From IMG/VR virus record IMGVR_UViG_3300037418_001469: a DNA stretch of 64,000 nucleotides, one strand, 5' to 3'. The notes below the pieces were generated by a model, which worked only from the letters and a program-made list of their open reading frames with translations, made no database searches and was not told the origin of the DNA. Shown here piece after piece: positions 4,301 to 63,466 of this stretch. How positions within the stretch are numbered: position 1 is the first letter of the stretch; each line of letters opens with the position of its first letter. The DNA comes from a virus. The translations under genes were made by a program, and so were the position numbers.

Positions 4301-4725
4301 ACAGCGCTTGTATTAGTGGGATTTTGTGTTTGCAGGACACCGTTTGTGCGAACATCTCCACCGAACAATGTGTATTTACTACTGTTAGTATTGATTTCTA
4401 AATGGTCTACTGAGCTAGATACATCAATAAGACTGTATGAAGGTGTTCCGTTTATGGTTGTTATATATGCAGATTCGCTCCCACTAGAACTAAATACATC
4501 TAGTCTTTGGTTGTTTACTCCGTCATATATAATTACATTATTTCCCTGTGGGTCTATTCTTAAGTAACCAGTGTTTGCATTATCAGTAAGTACCGAATTT
4601 TTTAATGTTAGTGCTCCACCACTTATAGTTAAATTACTATTAATAGATTGTGAATTTGTGTCTGACTTTGATATAAAAGCGTTATTTAGATTGCTAGCTG
4701 TTAATAAGGTCTTCTTGCTTAACAT
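1348..4725 (-). CDS. long tail fibre protein
   Basis: repeated GNVGIGTTxP..LDVxG motifs, DSDKLDNLDSSQF fibre motif, C-terminal PTGGSDGDIYIQY. Confidence 0.8.
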   Translation of the reverse strand: MLSKKTLLTASNLNNAFISKSDTNSQSINSNLTISGGALTLKNSVLTDNANTGYLRIDPQGNNVIIYDGVNNQRLDVFSSSGSESAYITTINGTPSYSLIDVSSSVDHLEINTNSSKYTLFGGDVRTNGVLQTQNPTNTSAVAYLGWYNNDPRIRIGGTGSGSAGTFRIQGTSDVDRLTVDSTGNTWTKGTLTASGKITASGGIGIYSSNTLSFDTYGGGFNMTDTTWIRTTGSKSFYQNAGTMRTDGTFQVGNNGATLNVPTNGQFNYMNGKFTIATGGAIGTTGPLNMTTSMSADSGIKIDGVSIDNVGSTGNLAIRSLNQLRFGDSNSWDYNTWGGIKYNSTTLKMYIGGPASTQFSSNANPANIDISFTGVGHVGVGTDTPVEMLDVAGNIKLRNGDSIYIGNNADSGDRLRLHHNNSEAYIDFGSGNLHIRNTTPNDVLTLLSGGNVGIGTTSPLKLLDVKGDARISGNIYSGISSLGFLNDAGGALPVKMASLAVTSSYSNSAPSYGLYVQGSAGVGTTTPTKKLDVVGDIRVQDNIYSPSLLNVYTDTGTAQSMKVGSLVVSSSYSNSAPSNGLYVEGNVGLGMTPAYRLDVAGVIGADSTIISRSNGDVFQAIGTGNGVKTIRWDNSNLRFWNSTALDLMTLTTGGRIGIGNSAPAYKLDVSGDVNVTGVIYSPGNNTKSIQVGDESSLWDINVANTMGLYGVANTAVGALKLGSTGPTLYGSGGSLGIATTTPNSTYKIDANGIINATNLYYSGQDTDVRYLKAGAKAVDSDKLDNLDSSQFIRSDIDAIIAGNHEFYATDTSGAYNTSAIEIREVNNVTTTQSSNAYAPALAFHWGGRVQGQLALDSSGVFNLRDGSTFAVNKTLNAGNLQVVGNNVWHAGNDSTLVKTTGVNKMTGDLNFTYNTGIDVEGVNAIKLLGPTVNGYGVKVGAGGLTVVGAGESADVFVDGFLAASTGNTAGTEQLYLTSDNSVFIRTGMNSATNSTYATTGKTFEFDSAGSINVGGVEKLLFSTNGDVRMNTDQGGRWYIMNAGDISSLTSTSHGFQIGVDSGISMRFDNNEIQVANNGASANLSLNPFGGTVTVNGYTVATVNDTIKWGTATPTGGSDGDIYIQY

Positions 4726-54712: not shown

Positions 54713-55219
54713 ATGGATTTTAAGACACCAAAGGTGGTATGTGGAGTATGTAACGGAAAAGGTGGATTTAGAAAACTAAAAGATAATTTCCTTGATACAA
54801 ATTGGATTGATTGTGCATACTGTGAAGGATATGGTTTTGTTGATGACACTACCACCGAAGAAGAAGTAACAACACACCTTACATATAACCGATATAAAAC
54901 TAAGTTAGAATCATCATTCAGTATACTAGGAGAATTAAAGGTAGTCACATCAGAATCAGAAAAAACAGATATGTTTGTAAAAATTCTTCCATACAACAGA
55001 AAAAACTGGACTACCTTAATTAAGCACATATTAAAATTCTCGCATCATCACGATAAAATTAAAGTACTTCCTAAGCAAGCGTTTTATCATACAGATGATG
55101 AAACCCACTATATTGATTGGGAATTGCACATTACAATGCATACCCTAGAAGATTTAGATGGACTATTAGAACTAGTTCGCATGTATAATGACACATTAGC
55201 AGTAGGTGGTGGCATATGA
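54713..55219 (+). CDS. hypothetical protein with DnaJ-type zinc knuckle
   Basis: CGVCNGKG and CAYCEGYG. Confidence 0.65.
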   Translation: MDFKTPKVVCGVCNGKGGFRKLKDNFLDTNWIDCAYCEGYGFVDDTTTEEEVTTHLTYNRYKTKLESSFSILGELKVVTSESEKTDMFVKILPYNRKNWTTLIKHILKFSHHHDKIKVLPKQAFYHTDDETHYIDWELHITMHTLEDLDGLLELVRMYNDTLAVGGGI

Positions 55220-55986
55220 AATGTCTAGGATTAACATTCTTAGGAACTGGCAGTGCCTTCTCAAAGAAATTCGGAAATAACAGTGCGGTGGTTACGATAG
55301 GAGATAAGAATTTACTTATTGATTGCGGAAGAACAACACCAAATGATTTAGATAAATCTCAATTCTCATGGTCAGACATTGATGCTATTTTCATCACTCA
55401 TATTCACGGAGACCATGTATTTGGATTGGAAGAGGCAGGATTCATGGGTAGATTCGTTCTCAATAAAAAACCGCATATTATTTTCCCACATAAGAAGATT
55501 AAGCAAGACCTGTGGGAGAAAGTACTCAAAGGAACAATGATGCAAGGAGATTTAGACAGGAACATGACATTCGATGATTATTTTACATATGAAATTGTCG
55601 ATGAGAGAGAGCAATATTTCGAATTTAACGATGTAATGTTTTCTGTATTTTCAACACAACATGTCAAAAATAAAAAATCATATGGCTTAATTATTGGAGA
55701 GTATGATTATATAGTATATACATCAGACACACTTTTTGATAGTGAAATGGTAATTGCTTTCTACCAAGGTGGAGCACAAAAGATATTTCACGACTGTCAA
55801 ATGACAGATTACAAAGGAAAAGTACACGCATCACTAGATGAATTAGCTACATTACCAGAAGAAATTCGAGAGAAGACAGTTATTATGCACTACGGAGATG
55901 ACTTAGATGGCAATTTTACAAGAATTAAAGAATTAAAATTAGGAATAGCGTTGCCAAATATAACTCAAAAATTCGTAGTCAAATAG
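55216..55986 (+). CDS. apyc1: MBL-fold hydrolase, anti-Pycsar Apyc1-like
   Basis: GTGSAFSKKF.NNSA, LLIDCG, THIHGDH, GLEE, SDT.FD, FHDCQ, VHASLDEL, MHYGD match recalled Apyc1 motifs. Confidence 0.75.
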   Translation: MKCLGLTFLGTGSAFSKKFGNNSAVVTIGDKNLLIDCGRTTPNDLDKSQFSWSDIDAIFITHIHGDHVFGLEEAGFMGRFVLNKKPHIIFPHKKIKQDLWEKVLKGTMMQGDLDRNMTFDDYFTYEIVDEREQYFEFNDVMFSVFSTQHVKNKKSYGLIIGEYDYIVYTSDTLFDSEMVIAFYQGGAQKIFHDCQMTDYKGKVHASLDELATLPEEIREKTVIMHYGDDLDGNFTRIKELKLGIALPNITQKFVVK

Positions 55987-57564: not shown

Positions 57565-57897
57565 ACCGAGATAAGCGTAACGCTTAATCAATTAGGAAAC
57601 TGTCAGATGGAAGATAGTAGGGTGGCAGAGAGTAGCAGGTGAATGGGGTTTATTCCTGCCGAATAATTATGAGAGGCTAGCATCTCATAGGAAGTGCATA
57701 TTGGAGTCGGTAGAGGGATGCACAGGGACAACATGGGTTAAAGTGTCTCGCCAAATAATGTTCTACTCTCAAAACTACCAAAATAGCGAATGTCATGGAG
57801 AAACAGAGTGCCTGTAAACAAACTATGATAGCTATGAAAGTGAATGACTGGTTCGGAACATCAAGGAAGGGCAAGGGGCAAAGCTAACGTCCCCCTT
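57565..57897 (+). ncRNA. large structured RNA, family unknown
   Basis: follows promoter, no plus-strand ORF; GAGAGTAG/CTACTCTC encloses several hairpins. Confidence 0.55.
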
Positions 57898-57947
57898 CTA
57901 ACGTAGAAATATCGTCATATTTGACGACATAGAAGGGAATGAGGAAT

Positions 57948-58064
57948 ATGAGAAAGTGTGAAAATTGCGGAAACGATAGAGAAGAGTATTTGAATCACTA
58001 CTGCAAGACGTGTTTAGATAAAATGACAGAAAATAACAGTGTAGTAATTCGAAAAGAATTGTGA
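57948..58064 (+). CDS. 38-aa zinc-finger microprotein
   Basis: MRKCENC...YCKTC; GAGG RBS; not in the ORF track. Confidence 0.55.
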   Translation: MRKCENCGNDREEYLNHYCKTCLDKMTENNSVVIRKEL

Positions 58065-58078
58065 TACAAAATTTATCC

Positions 58079-58107
58079 TTGACTTTTTAAAGGTCATATG
58101 ATATAAT
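58079..58107 (+). promoter_or_regulatory. early sigmaA promoter heading the DUF2828/RNA island
   Basis: TTGACT-17-TATAAT with extended TG. Confidence 0.75.
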
Positions 58108-58126
58108 ATATTTATAAGATAATGAG

Positions 58127-58309
58127 GTGATTGTTATAAAAGAAGAAATTAGATATGCTTTAGAAAATTTAAAAGATGAAGATAAAATCAAGTCTTTCTT
58201 AGAAAGACAGTCACACGATAGCTTATATTATATATTTACAATGTTAGAATATACAGATGTTGAAACATCTAATCTATGGACAAACACATATAATAGTTTA
58301 TTTAAATAA
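58127..58309 (+). CDS. hypothetical protein
   Basis: short ORF after promoter; start uncertain. Confidence 0.5.
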   Translation: MIVIKEEIRYALENLKDEDKIKSFLERQSHDSLYYIFTMLEYTDVETSNLWTNTYNSLFK

Positions 58310-58314
58310 TATCA

Positions 58315-58381
58315 GAGACACTCACAGCAATCCTACATACAAACAATTCAATTGGTGAATATTAAATGTATATAGTGTCTC
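58315..58381 (+). ncRNA. ACAGCAA-family RNA 1 (Y-RNA-like)
   Basis: GAGACACT/AGTGTCTC stem followed by ACAGCAA. Confidence 0.6.
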
Positions 58382-58392
58382 GTTAAACGTAA

Positions 58393-58485
58393 AAGACCCA
58401 AACAGCAAAACAATATAGTGCGATTGGTTCGCAATTTTTCTACTACGAAAATCTAAGAGGTTCAAATCCTCCTATAATGGGTCTT
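58393..58485 (+). ncRNA. ACAGCAA-family RNA 2 with tRNA-like D, anticodon-like and T arms
   Basis: AAGACCCA/TGGGTCTT stem; TAGTGCGATTGGTTCGCA; GAGG-TTCAAAT-CCTC. Confidence 0.65.
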
Positions 58486-58505
58486 GTCAAACGTATCTAA
58501 ACGTT

Positions 58506-58610
58506 GGCACATACAGCAATCCACTAACCTATACAGGAAAGTTCTCTACATTATGTAGACTTTAAAGATTGCTCGTGAAGAGCACGAAAAAATTTATCAT
58601 AGCTAGTGCC
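58506..58610 (+). ncRNA. ACAGCAA-family RNA 3
   Basis: GGCAC/GTGCC stem followed by ACAGCAA; internal hairpins. Confidence 0.55.
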
Positions 58611-58669
58611 TAGTAAACTAGAAGTCTATCTCCCCCAAGAGTCCACGTCGACGGGGAGATAAAACGTCC

Positions 58670-58726
58670 AGACATTAACAGCAACACAAAACAAATTTTC
58701 TTTGGATGAAAAATTATAATATGTCT
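58670..58726 (+). ncRNA. ACAGCAA-family RNA 4, abutting the RBS of the DUF2828 gene
   Basis: AGACAT/ATGTCT stem followed by ACAGCAA. Confidence 0.55.
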
Positions 58727-58733
58727 AGAAAGG

Positions 58734-60254
58734 ATGATTTATATGTTAAACCACTTAAAAAATGAAACTAATGTAGCATATACTACTAACGGTGCTAAGG
58801 CACTAAAAACATCTAACTCTTATCTTGTTGATTTCTTCGCATCATCTGGTGCACTGAGAAATCGTTCAAAAGAAGATATTAATCAATTGTTCTCTAAAGC
58901 ATTTGCAGAGGATAAATTATTGGCTATGAAAGCTTTATTCTATACTAGAGACATTCGTGGCGGACAAGGTGAGCGTGAAACATTTAAAACTATTATTAAA
59001 CAATTAGCTTTTACACATCCAGAAGTATTAGCTAGTAATATTAATTTAATTCCCTACTTTGGTCGATATGACGACTTACTAGTTTTGCTAGACACTCCTC
59101 TTGAAAAATTAGCTATGTCTATTATCAGAGCGCAACTACTTGAGGATTTAGATTTAGAGGCTCCTTCGCTATTAGCAAAATGGTTGCCATCTGAAAACGC
59201 ATCTTCTCGTGAAACTAAGCGTTTAGCTAAGAAGGTAGTATATAATTTAGGATTAACTCCTAAGCAATACCGTAAAACATTAACAACACTTCGCAAGAAG
59301 ATTAATATTGTTGAAGGTTTGATGTCAGCAAAGAAATTCAATGAAGTTGAATACGATAAAATTCCTTCTAAAGCAGGTCTGATTTATCGGAATGCATTTT
59401 ACCGAAATGACGGAGAACGATATACTGCATTTGTTGATTCACTTGTAAAGAGCGTGGAAAATAACGACAAAGAAACTAAAATTAATGTTAAGACATTGTT
59501 TCCATATGAGATTATTGGCAAATTCCCAATTACTATGACTACAGCAAATAACCGTCGTCATTATAATGCAGTAGTTGGTCATGCAAGCTCTCAAGATGAA
59601 AAGCTACTAGATGCTATGTGGAAGTCATTACCTGATTTTATTGGAGATAATTTTGATAACGCATTAGCAGTAGTAGATACATCAGGTTCTATGCGTGGAT
59701 TACCTATTCAAGTAGCACTTTCTTTAGGTCTTTACCTTGCCGAAAGAAATAAAGGAATTTTCAATAATCACTTTATTACATTCAGCAAAAAACCTGAATT
59801 ACAAGAAGTGTTAGGTGATACTTTAGGTGATAAGCTAAGAAATATGTCTCAAGCTGATTGGGACATGAATACTGATATTCAGTCTGTATTTAGCCTAATC
59901 CTTAACACTGCAATTAAGAATAATGTTCCGCAAGAAGAGTTACCATCTAAGATTTTCATTATCAGCGATATGGAATTTGATAAATGCGTAGGAAGTGGAA
60001 ACAATAAAACCGTCTTTGGTGAATTGGCTAATGACTTTGCTAAGTTTGGTTATGTTATTCCTGAACTAGTTTTTTGGAATGTTAATGCATTATCTACACA
60101 TTTTCCTGTTAAATACAATGAAACTGGAACTGCCCTTGTATCAGGTTGTTCGCCAACCGTCTTTAAGAATCTACTTGCAGGAAAAGAAATGACACCATAT
60201 GCAATGATGCTAGATGTACTTAATAATGAGCGTTACGATATTGTAATGGCATAA
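58734..60254 (+). CDS. DUF2828-family TROVE/Ro60-like protein with C-terminal vWA domain
   Basis: TTNGA..S..VDFF, RDIRGGQGER, AKWLP; MIDAS-type VVDTSGSM, IISDMEFD, LVFWNV. Confidence 0.75.
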   Translation: MIYMLNHLKNETNVAYTTNGAKALKTSNSYLVDFFASSGALRNRSKEDINQLFSKAFAEDKLLAMKALFYTRDIRGGQGERETFKTIIKQLAFTHPEVLASNINLIPYFGRYDDLLVLLDTPLEKLAMSIIRAQLLEDLDLEAPSLLAKWLPSENASSRETKRLAKKVVYNLGLTPKQYRKTLTTLRKKINIVEGLMSAKKFNEVEYDKIPSKAGLIYRNAFYRNDGERYTAFVDSLVKSVENNDKETKINVKTLFPYEIIGKFPITMTTANNRRHYNAVVGHASSQDEKLLDAMWKSLPDFIGDNFDNALAVVDTSGSMRGLPIQVALSLGLYLAERNKGIFNNHFITFSKKPELQEVLGDTLGDKLRNMSQADWDMNTDIQSVFSLILNTAIKNNVPQEELPSKIFIISDMEFDKCVGSGNNKTVFGELANDFAKFGYVIPELVFWNVNALSTHFPVKYNETGTALVSGCSPTVFKNLLAGKEMTPYAMMLDVLNNERYDIVMA

Positions 60255-60284
60255 TAAATGGAGGGGTAAAACCCTCTTATACGT

Positions 60285-60385
60285 GGAGAGCCTTGGCGGT
60301 GTAGTCCAACGAGACTATTGGTGGTTCGATTCCATCTGAAAACAGTGGCATGCAAATAATAGAGGGTTCGATTCCTTCCTCTCTC
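60285..60385 (+). ncRNA. tRNA-like RNA with two T-arms
   Basis: GGAGAG/CTCTC ends; GGTGG-TTCGATT-CCATC and GAGGG-TTCGATT-CCTTC; no anticodon arm. Confidence 0.55.
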
Positions 60386-60447
60386 AAAAACGTGAATGGC
60401 ATATTTTTCTATATAAGCAGAAGACTAAGACAACACACAAAAATACG

Positions 60448-60562
60448 TAGACACTTACAGCAATCAATCCTACAGGCACTTTAGGTTGGAGGTTAAAATC
60501 CTTCATGACTGAATCAGTCATTAGCTCAAATGTTAGAGCAAAAGTTTTGGATGATGTGTCTA
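60448..60562 (+). ncRNA. ACAGCAA-family RNA 5 with circularly permuted tRNA module (YrlA-like)
   Basis: TAGACAC/GTGTCTA stem; order is T arm, closed stem ATGACT/AGTCAT, then D arm TAGCTCAAATGTTAGAGC. Confidence 0.7.
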
Positions 60563-60568
60563 GATAAA

Positions 60569-60640
60569 CACTCTATAGTATAACGGTTAGTACATGGCTC
60601 TCATAAGGCTATGGTGGAAGTTCGATTCTTCCTAGAGTGA
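60569..60640 (+). tRNA. tRNA-Met/Ile (CAT)
   Basis: CACTCTA/TAGAGTG acceptor, loop CTCATAA, GTTCGATT. Confidence 0.75.
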
Positions 60641-60642
60641 TA

Positions 60643-60715
60643 TGCGGTGAGGACAAATGGTAAGTCACTAGTCTCATAAGCTAGAGATAGTTGGTTCGAT
60701 TCCAACCACTCGCAA
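60643..60715 (+). tRNA. tRNA-Met (CAT), bulged acceptor stem
   Basis: CTAGT-CTCATAA-GCTAG; GTTGG-TTCGATT-CCAAC. Confidence 0.7.
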
Positions 60716-60828
60716 TTGTAGGGTTGTAAGAGGTGAAAGTCCTCTACCCTTCACAAAACGTGTTGGTGGCGATTCTTAGGCTACTAGGTTGACAACCTTG
60801 TACGGTATACAGTGCAGAATAGTTGTTC

Positions 60829-60899
60829 GCTCTTATAGTATAATGGTATTACAGTTGACTTGTAATCATCTGATGGCAGTTCGATTCTGTCTAGGAGCA
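60829..60899 (+). tRNA. tRNA-Thr (TGT)
   Basis: GCTCTTA/TAGGAGC, loop CTTGTAA. Confidence 0.85.
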
Positions 60900-60915
60900 T
60901 CTTCGCCCATACGTA

Positions 60916-61224
60916 TCGTGTGAGTGACAGAGACTATACTACCGTCCGTACCCCCTGTATCGGGTCGATAATTGAAAACGGACAACCGCAATATCCAATA
61001 AGACCTAATCTAAGGCGATACACCTGACATGAGCACAGTAAAGGTTGAGGATAGAGGCAAGCTAGGTTGGTTTTTGGTATGAGCCTAGCATTTCTAATTG
61101 GTGTTGCACTACCTTATCTCAAATGTGCCCTATACAGATAGGAGGTCGTGCTCCTTATAATTAACCTGATAGATGGATGCTCTGCTCCCCATCGGCAAAG
61201 TTGGCAGGCAACGTTAAAACACGA
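60916..61224 (+). ncRNA. large structured RNA, family unknown
   Basis: TCGTGT/ACACGA closing stem; GTCCGT/ACGGAC, GAGCAC/GTGCTC, GCTAGG/CCTAGC; no ORF. Confidence 0.5.
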
Positions 61225-61232
61225 AATATCAA

Positions 61233-61303
61233 TGGGGTGTGGTATAATGGTAACACCTACGGTTTGGGACCGTATGTTGCGAGTTCGATTCTCGCCACTC
61301 CAA
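61233..61303 (+). tRNA. tRNA-Pro (TGG)
   Basis: TACGG-TTTGGGA-CCGTA; T arm GCGAG-TTCGATT-CTCGC. Confidence 0.85.
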
Positions 61304-61347
61304 TAAGTCTTTTATCATCTGTGCTTCACAAAACGTGAGGTGATAAA

Positions 61348-61779
61348 ATGACAAAGAAAATTGAATATGATACAAATGAAAAAGGTTGCATGCTAGTAAC
61401 ATCGCATTACAAGTCTAACACAGGTCATGTGCAGTTAAGAAGAGATGGTAAGGTGCAATGGTTACATAGATATGTTTACGAGCAAGAATTTGGAGAGATT
61501 CCAGAAGGAATGGTTGTAAGACATAAATGTGACAACCCATCGTGTATGAATATTGACCATTTAGAATTAGGAACCCATGTTGATAATGTCAATGATAGAG
61601 TGAAACGTAGAAGGTCTGCAACAGGAACTTCAAATGGTCGCTCTAAATTAACAGAAGAACAAGCTAGGTTTATCAAACACGACAATGAGTACTCTAATGC
61701 AGAGTTATCTAGAATGTTTAATATTAATGCCAAAGTTATTTATGAAATAAAACGAAATTTAAAATGGAAACATGTATAA
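61348..61779 (+). CDS. HNH homing endonuclease
   Basis: HR.VYE..VVRHKCDNPSCMNIDHLELGTHVDNVND and C-terminal HTH; inserted in tRNA array. Confidence 0.9.
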   Translation: MTKKIEYDTNEKGCMLVTSHYKSNTGHVQLRRDGKVQWLHRYVYEQEFGEIPEGMVVRHKCDNPSCMNIDHLELGTHVDNVNDRVKRRRSATGTSNGRSKLTEEQARFIKHDNEYSNAELSRMFNINAKVIYEIKRNLKWKHV

Positions 61780-61794
61780 GTGTTTCCTTACTTT

Positions 61795-61868
61795 GGACCC
61801 TTAGTTTAATGGTAAAACTCTTGGCTCATAACCGAGGTTCGCTAGTTCGATTCTAGCAGGGTCCACCA
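61795..61868 (+). tRNA. tRNA-Ile2 (CAT, lysidine type) or Met
   Basis: GGACCCT/AGGGTCC-ACCA resembles Bacillus tRNA-Ile2; loop CTCATAA. Confidence 0.85.
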
Positions 61869-61879
61869 AATATTATCAT

Positions 61880-61939
61880 GTCGGGTAGGTCAAACGATAC
61901 TAGTCACTCGTGAGGTGAGATTCCTCCCACTCGGCTCCA
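61880..61939 (+). ncRNA. truncated tRNA-like RNA ending in CCA
   Basis: GTCGGGT/ACTCGGC-TCCA; GAGG-TGAGATT-CCTC T-like arm; 60 nt. Confidence 0.45.
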
Positions 61940-61945
61940 AATTAT

Positions 61946-62016
61946 GTGGAATTAGTATAGCGGTAATACATGTGCTTGCCAAGCATAAATCACGAGTTCG
62001 ACCCTCGTATTCCACA
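61946..62016 (+). tRNA. tRNA-Gly (GCC)
   Basis: TGTGC-TTGCCAA-GCATA. Confidence 0.85.
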
Positions 62017-62025
62017 TCTTATTTT

Positions 62026-62097
62026 GCCCTCTTAATGTAAAGGATAACATGTGTGGTTTCTACCCACGAAATAGGGGTTCGACTCCTCTAGAGGGTG
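62026..62097 (+). tRNA. tRNA-Arg (TCT)
   Basis: TGTGG-TTTCTAC-CCACG. Confidence 0.8.
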
Positions 62098-62102
62098 TTT
62101 AT

Positions 62103-62194
62103 GGAGTGTTGGGTGAGTGGCTAAAACCATCAGTTTGCTAAACTGACGAGGGACAGAAATGCGACCTCCATCCGTTCGAATCGGATACGCTCCT
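62103..62194 (+). tRNA. tRNA-Ser (GCT)
   Basis: TCAGT-TTGCTAA-ACTGA, long variable arm. Confidence 0.85.
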
Positions 62195-62203
62195 TATCCA
62201 TAT

Positions 62204-62274
62204 GTGGTGTTAGTATAGTGGCAATACTCCTGTCTTCCAAACAGGCATCATCAGTTCAAATCTGATACACCACA
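62204..62274 (+). tRNA. tRNA-Gly (TCC)
   Basis: CCTGT-CTTCCAA-ACAGG. Confidence 0.85.
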
Positions 62275-62294
62275 CTTTTATTATGTCTAAACGT

Positions 62295-62370
62295 AGGGAA
62301 TTAGCGTATAGTGGTTAACGCCAGTTAGAGTTATCTCTAGAGTAAGAAGGTTCGATTCCTTCATTCCCCA
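62295..62370 (+). ncRNA. tRNA-like RNA lacking a normal anticodon loop
   Basis: intact acceptor, D and T arms; middle arm TAGAG-TTAT-CTCTA has a 4-nt loop. Confidence 0.6.
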
Positions 62371-62378
62371 AAAACGTT

Positions 62379-62462
62379 ACGGTCAAGGTTTTATGCCTAC
62401 CTACTTAGTATTCTAGAAAAACTTTGCAAGGTGGTCGAAGGGTTCGATTCCTTTCAACCGTT
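62379..62462 (+). ncRNA. T-arm RNA family B, copy 1
   Basis: TCAAGGTTTT.TGCCT..TATTCTAGA.AAACTTT..TGGTCG..GGTTCGATTCCT. Confidence 0.6.
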
Positions 62463-62547
62463 AAAACGTGAGTTATCTGAGGTGTCCATAAATCCTCACT
62501 CAGTCGGTAATTCTGTTGATGTAAGTCCAACAGAGGTTGCGACAAAC

Positions 62548-62634
62548 GTGCGTTCAAGGTTTTTGCCTGTCTTATTGGACTTATTCTAGATAAACTTTAA
62601 GATGGTCGGTAGGTTCGATTCCTACCAATCGTAC
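62548..62634 (+). ncRNA. T-arm RNA family B, copy 2
   Basis: same motif blocks as 62379-62462 with different stems. Confidence 0.6.
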
Positions 62635-62796
62635 AAACGTGCAGAAAGTGTCACATATCTTTAAGGCATATTGCCACTAAGCCCATTAGTAGATATGTAT
62701 GGGAGACACTTAGCATCAACACACCAGTATACACAGCTTAGTCATAGCAACTGCCTTTACAGAATTTAAAAATATATTCTAAAGGAGAATGATAAA

Positions 62797-63084
62797 ATGT
62801 CTTATCCAATTATCTATGAAAAAACTATAGGAAGTCGCCCAACGGCAGTTCCATATCCTAATGATACTGTTGGACAAACAAATGCTATGAAACAAGCAGA
62901 AGATATTGCAAAAAAAGAGTTATTTGATTTATTGATTAACGAGGCTTTTACAGGTAGTAATAAGTTCGCAACCGATGTAACTTTAACAACTGAAATAGTT
63001 ACTGACCTAAATGGAAATAAAACTGTTAAATCTATTGCACAATCAAAAATCTTCAAACGAACAGACATTGTATATCCTGTTTAA
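62797..63084 (+). CDS. hypothetical protein
   Basis: AAGGAG RBS, 95 aa. Confidence 0.65.
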   Translation: MSYPIIYEKTIGSRPTAVPYPNDTVGQTNAMKQAEDIAKKELFDLLINEAFTGSNKFATDVTLTTEIVTDLNGNKTVKSIAQSKIFKRTDIVYPV

Positions 63085-63179
63085 TTAAATAAGGAGAAAG
63101 ATTCGTCTTTCTTCTAACGTGCATGGTTCACACAATCTCATTTTATCGTACCTCCGTGGGAGATTATTCTCCCTCTTAT

Positions 63180-63253
63180 GCGAGTTTAGTTTAAAGGCAG
63201 AACTAAGGTCTCCAAAACCTTCGGTAGGGGTTCGACTCCTCTAACTCGTGCCA
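63180..63253 (+). tRNA. tRNA-Trp (CCA)
   Basis: AAGGT-CTCCAAA-ACCTT; encoded 3' GCCA. Confidence 0.9.
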
Positions 63254-63284
63254 ACGTGATTAACATAATACCAACTCCTTTTTT

Positions 63285-63314
63285 TACTAGGCTTAATTGC
63301 CTAGTATTTTTTTT
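63285..63314 (+). terminator. intrinsic terminator closing the RNA island
   Basis: TACTAGGC/GCCTAGTA followed by T8. Confidence 0.75.
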
Positions 63315-63335
63315 GAATTTTTTTCTAGTTTGTCC

Positions 63336-63365
63336 TTGACTTTACCCTATTCTACCATTTATAAT
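63336..63365 (+). promoter_or_regulatory. early sigmaA promoter
   Basis: TTGACT-18-TATAAT. Confidence 0.65.
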
Positions 63366-63466
63366 ACAATTATAAGATAAAACGTAACCCAAATAACTCC
63401 TGATAAACAAGAGGACACACAGCCATGAGGCAGGACGTTTTATCAATAACGTAGGAGGTTGGTAGA

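What the first reader, a model, noticed from the sequence alone, without database searches (positions are those of the whole stretch)
60448..60562. Circularly permuted tRNA module on an ACAGCAA handle (YrlA-like topology)
Inside the handle the order is T-arm (GGAGG-TTAAAAT-CCTTC), a loop-closed stem (ATGACT-GAATC-AGTCAT), then a D-arm (TAGCTCAAATGTTAGAGC). This is a tRNA elbow with a sealed acceptor, the handle replacing the anticodon arm. It matches the established architecture of bacterial YrlA RNAs and independently supports the Ro/Y analogy. Unit 2 (58393) instead carries a non-permuted D-AC-T module, so both topologies coexist.
Basis: partly seen in the sequence, partly recalled or inferred. 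Interest (0 to 1): 0.8.

Follow-up and report, generated by a model that had tools for sequence, protein, structure and literature searches.

The report
Inside-out tRNA mimic, Ro60-like partner
A soil phage encodes a 115-base RNA shaped like a tRNA turned inside-out (amino-acid end sealed, anticodon loop replaced by a conserved 'handle') just after the gene of a Ro60-shaped ring protein; it is a divergent, uncatalogued cousin of bacterial YrlA Y RNAs and probably docks that protein onto tRNA-handling machinery.

Summary
Window 60448-60562 (+) folds with 34 of 34 standard pairs. A 7-bp closing helix is followed by an 8-nt bulge holding ACAGCA, a second helix, and a canonical tRNA four-way junction. 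The junction runs variable loop, T arm, sealed 7-bp acceptor hairpin, U8-A9, D arm, A26.

Rfam YrlA matches it end to end, but only at 30.3 bits (cut-off 69; E 8.8e-4).

It lies 193 nt downstream of, and on the same strand as, a DUF2828/DUF7788 gene. That protein's predicted fold matches Ro60 best (1yvr, E 1e-7).

Models built from this unit find 26 strong relatives beside DUF2828 genes in 20 phage loci. None overlaps a tRNA. Pairing is 90% versus 63% in shuffles, and 25 of 29 pairs carry compensatory changes.

Unit 5 alone has A56 and U19 where all relatives have C56 and G19, so the elbow pair is preserved. In phage contigs, 5 of 6 sealed modules with a non-C56 are compensated, against 4 of 89 tandem-tRNA controls.

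It fails two YrlA membership tests: the score and the GNCGAA motif. I call it a new variant of a known kind.

The scan has already reported the same handle/Ro60-like pairing in at least 88 other genomes.

The parts
60448..60454 (+). Closing helix P1, 5' strand (TAGACAC)
   Evidence: Pairs with 60556-60562. The family helix is 94.6% paired, and all 7 pairs carry compensatory changes.
60455..60463 (+). One-sided bulge holding the conserved ACAGCAA 'handle' motif (60457-60463); the last A opens helix P2. Proposed binding site for the Ro60-like protein.
   Evidence: CAGCA is invariant in 17 aligned homologues. Helix-plus-CAGCAA units number 217 on the gene strand and 29 on the opposite strand across 92 DUF2828 loci. 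Binding itself is inferred.
60463..60470 (+). Helix P2, 5' strand (ATCA-A-TCC, one bulged A); the CUAC (YUAY) motif begins at 60470
   Evidence: Pairs with 60549-60555. Family support is weak, at 62.8% paired. cmscan aligns CUAC to the YrlA 'CUAc'.
60478..60487 (+). Anticodon-stem equivalent, 3'-side strand ACTTT (60478-60482), followed by the 5-nt variable loop AGGTT (60483-60487; U48)
   Evidence: Five Watson-Crick pairs with 60541-60545. The same helix is 5 of 5 paired in 6 of 24 relatives, three of them with different sequences; it is not significant family-wide. The A15:U48 Levitt pair covaries across the family.
60488..60504 (+). T arm: GGAGG / TTAAAAT / CCTTC (G53:C61 kept, U54 and A58 kept, A instead of C at position 56)
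   Evidence: The family T stem is 99.2% paired and G53:C61 is invariant in 24 of 24.
60505..60521 (+). Sealed acceptor-stem hairpin: ATGACTG / AAT / CAGTCAT, 7 bp
   Evidence: The family helix is 90.9% paired, and all 6 modelled pairs carry compensatory changes.
60522..60540 (+). U8-A9, the D arm GCTC / AAATGTTA / GAGC (A14, A15, G18, U19, A21), and A26
   Evidence: The family D stem is 97.9% paired. U19 is complementary to A56.
60541..60555 (+). Anticodon-stem equivalent, 5'-side strand AAAGT (60541-60545), 3-nt junction TTT, and P2 3' strand GGATGAT (60549-60555)
60556..60562 (+). Closing helix P1, 3' strand (GTGTCTA). It ends 6 nt before tRNA-Met (60569-60640).
   Evidence: RNase P cleavage of the next tRNA would free the 3' end; this is inferred.
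58734..60254 (+). Partner gene: 506-aa DUF2828 + DUF7788 (vWA with an invariant DxSxS MIDAS motif). A Ro60-like ring protein by predicted fold.
   Evidence: Pfam and PHROG 850. AlphaFold pLDDT 86. The top Foldseek hits are all Ro60/TROVE: 1yvr E 1e-7, 2nvo, and phage phiLo 9l5y/9kop.
58079..58107 (+). Sigma-70-type promoter (TTGACT-17-TATAAT with extended -10) that probably drives the whole RNA/Ro-like/tRNA unit
   Evidence: It is conserved upstream of the unit arrays in L001 and L002.
63285..63306 (+). First strong intrinsic terminator downstream of the unit (8-bp stem followed by T8)
58315..58727 (+). Four sister handle units upstream of the gene (58315-58381, 58393-58485, about 58506-58610, 58669-58727) with other modules
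   Evidence: They are conserved in L001 and L002.

Best explanation
Unit 5 is a Y-RNA-type small RNA of the YrlA design. It is the RNA partner of the phage's Ro60-like (DUF2828) ring protein.

Shown by computation:
- The RNA has two modules.
- Module 1 is the handle: a 7-bp end-to-end helix, then a one-sided bulge carrying ACAGCAA, then a second helix. The handle is shared by all five units of this locus and by hundreds of units beside DUF2828 genes in other phages.
- Module 2 is a tRNA body without an anticodon loop or a free acceptor end. It keeps the T arm, D arm, connector lengths, and the elbow contacts 19:56, 15:48, U8/A14 and U54/A58.

Inferred:
- The unit is transcribed from the promoter at 58079-58107 as part of one long RNA that also holds the Ro-like mRNA and the tRNA array. 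It is cut out by the tRNA-processing enzymes; RNase P cleavage at tRNA-Met, 6 nt downstream, would make its 3' end.
- The Ro-like ring binds the handle, as Ro60 binds the bulged stem of Y RNAs.
- The tRNA elbow then acts as an adaptor. It brings the ring to a factor that recognises tRNA shape, or the reverse. Candidates are host PNPase as in RYPER complexes, RNase P, or tRNA-modifying enzymes.
- The resulting particle would survey or dispose of misfolded or damaged tRNA-like RNAs during infection, or blunt a host defence.
For: Anatomy: 34 of 34 standard pairs and exact tRNA connector lengths. The MFE keeps the three arms.

Known-family match: Rfam YrlA aligns full length, 30.3 bits, E 8.8e-4. 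Comparable sub-threshold YrlA hits lie just downstream of DUF2828 genes, on the same strand, in Klebsiella phage KP2025 (40.1 and 34.3 bits) and Mycobacterium phage Enceladus (39.8 bits).

Partner: the gene ends 193 nt upstream on the same strand. Its model (pLDDT 86) matches Ro60 structures first, over the full length. Mycobacteriophage homologues are annotated 'Ro-like RNA binding protein'.

Family:
- A model built from unit 5 alone finds L015 (58.8 bits), KP2025 (53.3) and L050 (43.7). 88 of its 89 hits are on the gene strand.
- The second model gives 26 hits of at least 42 bits in 20 sources, none overlapping an ARAGORN tRNA.
- Covariation: 90% paired versus 62.7% in shuffles and about 40% in slid controls; 25 of 29 pairs have double changes.

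Tertiary contacts:
- Unit 5 has A56 with U19, where 25 of 25 relatives have C56 with G19.
- 5 of 6 sealed modules with a non-C56 are Watson-Crick compensated, against 4 of 89 tandem-tRNA controls. Fisher p is 1e-5, or 1e-4 after collapsing homologues.
- Levitt pair: A15:U48 10 times, G15:C48 6 times, A15:C48 never; p 0.012.

Handle: units are 217 on the gene strand versus 29 on the opposite strand in 92 loci.

Operon: one strong promoter and the first strong terminator bracket 58107-63306.

Precedent:
- Ro60/Y RNA/PNPase complexes in bacteria, and in Thermus phage phiLo (PMC4201824; PMC12135203).
- Felixounavirus Bas63 gp130 is described as Ro60-like, counters the Ppl defence, and lies beside tRNA genes (bioRxiv 10.1101/2024.10.10.617714). 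The DUF2828 homologues found here include Felixounavirus records, but gp130 itself was not compared.
Against: - There are no expression, processing or binding data. Everything about the RNP is inferred from linkage and analogy.
- The Rfam score is less than half the gathering score.
- The canonical Ro-binding motif GNCGAAN0-1G / CGAA is absent.
- The protein shows no sequence-level similarity to TROVE (Pfam, 0 of 12 homologues; PDB profile search empty). The Foldseek TM-score is only about 0.55.
- The closest relative, L001, has a different module at the same position, and L002 has no unit there. This particular module is therefore dispensable or exchangeable.
- Helices P2 and P3 are weakly supported family-wide.
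- The alignment used for pair counts was fitted to the model's own structure.
- No RtcB or Rnl-type ligase was found in the 126 kb held, so a repair role has no local support.
Confidence: 0.75

Rival explanations
1. The unit is a stand-alone tRNA-elbow decoy or sponge that does not work through the Ro-like protein. The sealed, anticodon-less tRNA body would soak up a host factor that reads tRNA shape, such as a defence nuclease, a modification enzyme or RNase P. The ACAGCAA helix would be only a processing or stability signal shared by the phage's small RNAs.
For: The tRNA body is the best-conserved part (T stem 99%, D stem 98% paired). The locus and its neighbours hold several other anticodon-less tRNA look-alikes. 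The unit sits inside a tRNA operon. An anti-defence gene (Apyc1 family) lies 4.5 kb upstream.
Against: Handle units track DUF2828 genes on the same strand in 74 of 92 loci. A handle precedes the Ro-like start codon itself (unit 4). Known YrlA RNAs of the same design are bound by Ro60 (PMC4201824). This rival does not explain why unrelated modules share one handle.
Confidence: 0.13
2. It is a genuine circularly permuted tRNA gene. The transcript would be matured by cutting in the hairpin loop and joining or trimming the outer ends, giving a working or split tRNA.
For: The order (3' half, linker, 5' half) is that of permuted tRNA genes. The 7-bp acceptor helix is the length RNase P needs. M. smegmatis YrlA, with a 7-bp stem, is cleaved by RNase P and receives CCA (PMC4201824).
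Against: There is no anticodon loop. The anticodon-stem equivalent runs into two further helices and an 8-nt bulge. No bulge-helix-bulge motif lies at the ends, no CCA or discriminator context is present, and no RNA ligase was found in the phage. Relatives carry quite different or nested inserts in the hairpin loop.
Confidence: 0.04
3. It is a decaying remnant: the T arm of one dead tRNA and the D arm of the next, with chance complementarity around them and no function.
For: It lies in a tRNA array. Tandem tRNAs are a known false positive of the YrlA model (PMC4201824), and they also score up to about 38 bits with my model. The T and D loops deviate from consensus.
Against: The two 'acceptor' strands are perfectly complementary to each other, which tandem tRNAs are not. 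The outer helices also pair, giving 34 of 34 pairs against a shuffle maximum of 23. The two loop deviations are mutually compensating. 25 relatives keep the design with compensatory changes.
Confidence: 0.03

Closest known systems
YrlA, the tRNA-like Y RNA of bacteria and mycobacteriophages (Rfam RF02553; Chen et al. 2014, PMC4201824)
   Same: It is encoded next to, and on the strand of, a Ro60-type gene. The ends pair into a stem. Inside, the order is V region with YUAY, T arm, closed acceptor-like hairpin, D arm. tRNA tertiary pairs are possible and the Levitt pair covaries. Several Y-type RNAs occur per locus. The Rfam model aligns end to end.
   Different: It scores 30.3 bits against a cut-off of 69. 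The proposed protein-binding motif is a bulged ACAGCAA rather than GNCGAAN0-1G. The partner protein is DUF2828/DUF7788, not a Pfam TROVE protein, so it fell outside the TROVE-based 2014 survey. The T loop has A56 and the D loop U19.
Thermus phage phiLo Ro60 with Yrl1/Yrl2 (PMC12135203; PDB 9KOP, 9L5Y)
   Same: It is a phage-encoded Ro60-type ring with Y-like RNAs encoded beside the gene. The phiLo structures are among the top fold matches of the window's protein. It is the experimental precedent for a phage Ro/Y/host-PNPase complex.
   Different: The phiLo RNAs are simple stem-bulge-stem RNAs with a CGAA motif, they lie upstream of the gene, and no tRNA-like module was reported.
Bas63 gp130, a Ro60-like protein of a Felix O1-type phage (bioRxiv 10.1101/2024.10.10.617714)
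   Same: The paper calls gp130 structurally Ro60-like and places it directly beside a tRNA array. DUF2828 homologues of the window's protein occur in Felixounavirus records in the same setting, but gp130 itself was not compared here. The authors guessed that some 'tRNAs' there are Y RNAs. A related Ounavirinae phage (Moogle) has a handle-plus-T/acceptor/D unit at L013 4864-4980 (72 bits).
   Different: No partner RNA was identified there. The reported phenotype, countering the Ppl defence, has not been tied to any RNA.
Vertebrate Y RNAs and D. radiodurans Yrn1 with Ro60/Rsr
   Same: Both have a two-module design: a terminal bulged helix that binds the ring, plus an effector module that tethers a partner such as PNPase.
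   Different: There is no sequence relation. Vertebrate Y RNAs lack a tRNA body, and Yrn1 has the arms in another order (PMC4201824).
Circularly permuted tRNA genes (Cyanidioschyzon type) and two-piece tmRNA
   Same: The 3' half of a tRNA-like body is encoded before the 5' half.
   Different: Those are matured into molecules with free acceptor ends, and the tRNAs have an anticodon loop. Here the acceptor is sealed and there is no anticodon loop.

Membership tests
YrlA (Rfam RF02553) | Score at or above the curated gathering score (69 bits) | tested here: not met
   30.3 bits, E 8.8e-4, model positions 1-114 of 114. It was not listed at the gathering threshold.
YrlA (Chen et al. 2014) | Encoded within 4 kb of a Ro60 orthologue, on the same strand | tested here: met
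   It lies 193 nt downstream of 58734-60254 (+). The protein is Ro60-like by predicted fold but is not a Pfam TROVE protein.
YrlA (Chen et al. 2014) | GNCGAAN0-1G motif at the 5' end (proposed Ro60 contact) | tested here: not met
   The 5' region reads TAGACAC-TT-ACAGCAA. The family-invariant letters are CAGCA.
YrlA (Chen et al. 2014) | Nearly invariant T and D stem-loops separated by a closed acceptor-like stem-loop, in the order T, AS, D | tested here: met
   The order is conserved with covariation in 26 relatives.
YrlA (Chen et al. 2014) | YUAY at the start of the V region | tested here: met
   CTAC at 60470-60473, aligned to the model's CUAc.
YrlA (Chen et al. 2014) | tRNA tertiary pairs can form; the Levitt 15:48 pair covaries | tested here: met
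   U8, A14, A15:U48, G18, U19:A56, U54, A58 and G53:C61 are all present. The 15:48 pair is associated with p 0.012. The 19:56 pair is compensated in 5 of 6 modules against 4 of 89 controls.
YrlA (Chen et al. 2014) | Bound by Ro60/Rsr in vivo; carries pseudouridine 55 and dihydrouridine | not testable with these tools
   This needs immunoprecipitation and modification mapping.
Canonical tRNA (RF00005 / ARAGORN) | Cloverleaf with free acceptor ends and a 7-nt anticodon loop | tested here: not met
   No tRNA is called at 60448-60562. The acceptor is closed by a 3-nt loop, and there is no anticodon loop.
Circularly permuted tRNA genes | After the ends are joined, a complete anticodon arm is formed; the ends form a bulge-helix-bulge splice motif | tested here: not met
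   The ends form a 7-bp helix plus an 8-nt one-sided bulge and a second helix. No anticodon loop can be formed.
ACAGCAA-handle RNAs beside DUF2828 genes (provisional class seen repeatedly in this scan) | An end-to-end helix, then 1-4 nt, then CAGCAA; on the strand of a nearby DUF2828 gene | tested here: met
   A 7-bp helix, TT, then ACAGCAA. The class is enriched 217 to 29 on the gene strand in 92 loci.

The most novel reading that the evidence does not exclude
The ACAGCAA-handle RNAs and the DUF2828 ring protein form a separate, undescribed branch of the Ro60/Y-RNA world. DUF2828 homologues occur in at least 701 phage genome records, including Felix O1-like, Listeria, Staphylococcus, Campylobacter, Vibrio and Mycobacterium phages. 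In this reading one protein reads a common handle, and exchangeable modules act as adaptors. The modules include an inside-out tRNA, a normal tRNA body, and a UUCAAUGGUGAA loop. The adaptors aim the ring at different host RNA-handling or defence factors. The inside-out tRNA of unit 5 would be the adaptor for elbow-recognising proteins.
Probability: 0.5. Interest if true: 0.8.

Novelty: new variant of a known kind. Interest (0 to 1): 0.62.

Why it matters
Ro60 and its Y RNAs are a conserved RNA-surveillance particle whose bacterial and viral roles are still poorly understood. The purpose of the tRNA mimicry in YrlA is also an open question.

This unit shows that the same inside-out tRNA design has been kept on a different protein-binding handle, beside a protein family that Pfam files as 'unknown function'. 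That family is common in well-studied, cultivable phages.

A preprint reports that Bas63 gp130, a Ro60-like protein, is a counter-defence factor, and its authors only guessed that Y RNAs hide among the neighbouring tRNA genes. The handle gives a concrete way to find those RNAs and to test them by pull-down, gel shift and knock-out.

The compensated 19:56 pair is sequence-level evidence that the elbow, not just the arms, is under selection. This points to an elbow-reading partner.

Tried and rejected
1. DNA similarity to known phages found nothing useful. Megablast of the 3.6-kb region gave no hit, and blastn of the unit gave only 24-nt chance matches.

2. The genome search with RF02553 on the phage's own genome missed the unit and returned a 15-bit tRNA-region hit. 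Its first-look filter is too coarse for this divergent RNA, so I used cmscan and my own models instead.

3. MAFFT alignments of the units (A2, A3, A7) misplaced the handle and the hairpin and were not used for pair counts.

4. Sequence searches of the protein against PDB chains, singly and as a profile, found no Ro60. Only the fold comparison did.

5. I tested family-wide support for the anticodon-stem equivalent (P3). The mean was 3.67 pairs against 3.49 in shuffles, which is not significant. P3 is claimed only for unit 5 and a subset of relatives.

6. A viral-contig scan for ACAGCAA followed by a non-C56 T arm returned mostly chance matches in coding DNA. Only the window and L213 were real.

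7. A simple 6-bp helix-plus-CAGCAA descriptor is unspecific inside the window, so I required 7 bp or more and used the opposite strand as the control.

8. I looked for phage RNA ligases (RtcB, Rnl) in the 126-kb record and found none.

9. Supplementary tables of Chen et al. 2014 and the 2020 Annual Review were not available. I therefore could not check directly whether any DUF2828-linked phage RNA was on their list.

10. The decayed tandem-tRNA and true permuted-tRNA readings were considered and rejected, as set out under rival explanations.

Full report
**What is there.** Window 60448-60562 (+) was read directly. The elements, in order:

- TAGACAC pairs with GTGTCTA at the two ends (P1).
- After two T's comes ACAGCAA. 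The first six letters sit in an 8-nt one-sided bulge, and the last A opens a second helix.
- The second helix, P2, is ATCA-A-TCC with GGA-TGAT.
- Next is CTAC, then ACTTT, which pairs with AAAGT on the far side.
- Then a 5-nt loop AGGTT.
- The T arm is GGAGG/TTAAAAT/CCTTC.
- With no spacer, a sealed hairpin follows: ATGACTG/AAT/CAGTCAT.
- Then T-A, the D arm GCTC/AAATGTTA/GAGC, and one A.

These are exactly the connector lengths of a tRNA four-way junction: variable loop 5, none between T and acceptor, U8-A9, and position 26. All 34 proposed pairs are standard pairs; 10,000 shuffles gave a mean of 13.3 and a maximum of 23. The structure costs only 2.6 kcal/mol more than the MFE, which contains the same T, acceptor and D arms.

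The correction is that only the anticodon loop is replaced. A 5-bp anticodon-stem equivalent remains and leads into the handle.

**Is it chance or a tRNA artefact?** ARAGORN and Rfam tRNA call ten and eleven tRNAs in the window but nothing here. Rfam YrlA (RF02553) aligns over all 114 model positions at 30.3 bits, E 8.8e-4 for the 3.6-kb search. It places the T, closed-stem and D helices as above and aligns CTAC to the model's CUAc. That is well below the gathering score of 69.

Chen et al. warn that tandem tRNAs can mimic YrlA. Here the two 'acceptor' strands are complementary to each other and the outer ends pair, which tandem tRNAs do not do.

**Context.** The unit starts 193 nt after the stop codon of a 506-aa gene (58734-60254, +).

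- The protein carries DUF2828 and DUF7788 (a vWA domain with an invariant DxSxS motif) and belongs to PHROG 850, 'RNA-binding protein'.
- tblastn finds homologues in 701 phage records. Many sit next to tRNA arrays, and the mycobacteriophage ones are annotated 'Ro-like RNA binding protein'.
- None of 12 homologues matches Pfam TROVE, and sequence searches of PDB chains find no Ro60.
- An AlphaFold model (pLDDT 86, pTM 0.86) has Ro60 structures as its best full-length fold matches. These are Xenopus 1yvr (E 1e-7, TM 0.55), Deinococcus Rsr 2nvo, human Ro60, and the Ro60 of Thermus phage phiLo.
- A strong promoter (TTGACT-17-TATAAT, extended -10) at 58079-58107 is conserved in the two nearest relatives. 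The first strong terminator, at 63285-63306, closes the bracket.
- Between them lie four other handle units, the gene, unit 5 and the tRNA array.
- tRNA-Met begins 6 nt after the unit.

**Relatives.** Sub-threshold YrlA hits lie just downstream of the DUF2828 gene, on its strand, in two other phages. Klebsiella phage KP2025 has two (40.1 and 34.3 bits), and Mycobacterium phage Enceladus has one (39.8 bits). Both loci also contain further helix-plus-CAGCAA units.

A covariance model made from unit 5 alone, run over 90 DUF2828 loci (710 kb), found L015 (58.8 bits), KP2025 (53.3, 35.6), L050 (43.7, 30) and others. 88 of its 89 hits were on the gene strand.

A second model built from 16 hits gave 26 matches of at least 42 bits in 20 sources. 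None overlaps an ARAGORN tRNA, and all have the handle followed by T arm, sealed hairpin and D arm. Tandem tRNAs reach at most about 38 bits.

On the 24 distinct sequences:

| Measure | Value |
|---|---|
| Cells paired | 90% (62.7% in column shuffles, about 40% when partners are slid) |
| Pairs with changes on both sides | 25 of 29 |
| P1 paired | 94.6% |
| T stem paired | 99.2% (G53:C61 invariant) |
| Sealed hairpin paired | 90.9% (all six pairs compensatory) |
| D stem paired | 97.9% |
| P2 paired | 62.8% (weak) |

The alignment was fitted to the model, so these figures lean towards it. The hairpin sequences are nevertheless unrelated from phage to phage.

Helix-plus-CAGCAA units (7 bp or more) number 217 on the gene strand, in 74 of 92 loci, against 29 on the other strand. 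In the phage's own 126 kb only unit 5 (108.6 bits) and unit 1 (33 bits) match the second model.

**The elbow.** All 25 other strong family members have C at T-loop position 56 and GG at D-loop positions 18-19. Unit 5 alone has A56 and G18-U19. In tRNA, G19:C56 is the Watson-Crick pair that locks the D and T loops together, so the two deviations compensate each other.

To see whether this is general, I scanned viral contigs for a non-C56 T arm followed by a GCTC/GAGC D arm. I split the hits into two groups: those with a flush sealed hairpin of 6 bp or more, and tandem-tRNA-like spacers.

- Of six sealed modules with a non-C56, five have the Watson-Crick partner at 19. Three are U56:A19, including L213, which has an ACAGCAA handle. 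Two are A56:U19. The sixth has a U-G wobble.
- Of 89 tandem controls, four are compensated.
- Fisher p is 1e-5, or 1e-4 if two homologous loci are merged.

The Levitt pair behaves the same way: A15:U48 ten times, G15:C48 six times, A15:C48 never (p 0.012). U8 is present in 23 of 24 sequences and A14 in 24 of 24.

**What argues for caution.**

- The nearest relative (L001, 73% protein identity) has, at the same place before its tRNA array, a unit with the same handle but a different, well-folded module (z -3.1). L002 has no unit there. The family keeps the arm order, but the locus swaps modules.
- The anticodon-stem equivalent is 5 of 5 paired in only 6 of 24 relatives and is not significant family-wide.
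- There are no expression or binding data.
- No RtcB or Rnl ligase is present in the held genome, which is 74% complete.

**How it most likely works.**

Shown: a two-module RNA, with a shared handle and a tRNA body that has an intact elbow; tight same-strand linkage to a Ro60-fold protein; and an operon with tRNAs.

Inferred:
- The RNA is excised by tRNA-processing enzymes.
- The ring protein binds the bulged handle, as Ro60 binds the bulged stem of Y RNAs.
- The elbow recruits a tRNA-shape reader.

The best precedent is the Ro60/Y RNA/PNPase machine of Deinococcus and Salmonella, and the phiLo phage Ro60, which assembles with host PNPase through its Y-like RNAs.

Bas63 gp130, described as structurally Ro60-like, counters the Ppl defence. 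Its authors suspected Y RNAs among the adjacent tRNA genes. A counter-defence role is therefore as plausible as RNA quality control. The 7-bp sealed stem is the length that made M. smegmatis YrlA an RNase P substrate, so cleavage in the hairpin loop is possible.

**Comparison and novelty.** The unit works like YrlA but fails two membership tests, the Rfam score and the GNCGAAN0-1G motif. Its partner is outside Pfam TROVE, so it would have been missed by the TROVE-based survey of 2014. I found no paper describing DUF2828-linked Y RNAs. I class it as a new variant of a known kind.

Notes of this scan show that the same handle/Ro60-like pairing has already been reported in at least 88 other genomes, and that this locus has sister findings. 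I reached my reading before consulting the cross-genome notes, and they agree with it.

Noticed in passing
window 58669-58727: Handle unit 4 (AGACAT / ACAGCAA / ATGTCT) ends directly at the Shine-Dalgarno sequence and start of the Ro-like gene (AGAAAGGATG...ATG at 58734). It is conserved in L001 (3927-3986) but absent in L002. It could let the protein regulate its own translation.
   Followed up: partly
window 58315-58381; L001 3561-3624; L002 3664-3729; L011 about 4455-4580; L008 3961-4015: A second handle-RNA type has a conserved apical loop, UUCAA(U)UGGUGAA. It is shared by this phage, its relatives, Klebsiella phage KP2025 and Mycobacterium phage Enceladus.
   Followed up: partly
L023 4712-4879; L066 2623-2808; L086 3280-3385: In some phages the sealed acceptor hairpin of a T/acceptor/D unit carries a second CAGCAA handle unit nested in its loop.
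   Followed up: no
window 60285-60386: An RNA-like unit lies directly after the Ro-like stop codon. It is closed by GGAGAG/CTCTCT and has two canonical TTCGATT T arms and no anticodon arm.
   Followed up: no
window 57886-63452: AAACGT / AACGT recurs within a few bases of the ends of nearly every structured unit, for example at 58386, 58490, 58663, 60389, 60757 and 61332. The same is seen in L001 and L002. It may be a processing or punctuation signal.
   Followed up: no
window 55216-55986: This ORF matches the anti-Pycsar protein Apyc1 family (PF23023, E 7.9e-39), a metallo-beta-lactamase-fold cyclic-nucleotide phosphodiesterase.
   Followed up: no
window 60644-60714: Rfam finds a tRNA with a CAU anticodon here (50.6 bits), but ARAGORN does not list it. 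It lies immediately after tRNA-Met at 60569-60640.
   Followed up: no
window 61348-61779: An HNH_3 homing-endonuclease gene is inserted inside the tRNA array.
   Followed up: no
L099 and L155 (rc positions about 180-330 and 1450-1600); L185 and L094: Other phage contigs hold sealed T/acceptor/D modules on different handles: a CGAA-type stem in L099 and L155, and GGTGAGTGT/ACACTCACT in L185 and L094. Their 19:56 pairs also co-vary (U:A, A:U, U:G).
   Followed up: partly
L007 (Listeria phage LMSP-25) 5350-6506: An annotated tRNA-splicing ligase (RtcB-type) gene lies 1.3 kb downstream of the DUF2828 gene. No such ligase was found in the window's own phage.
   Followed up: no
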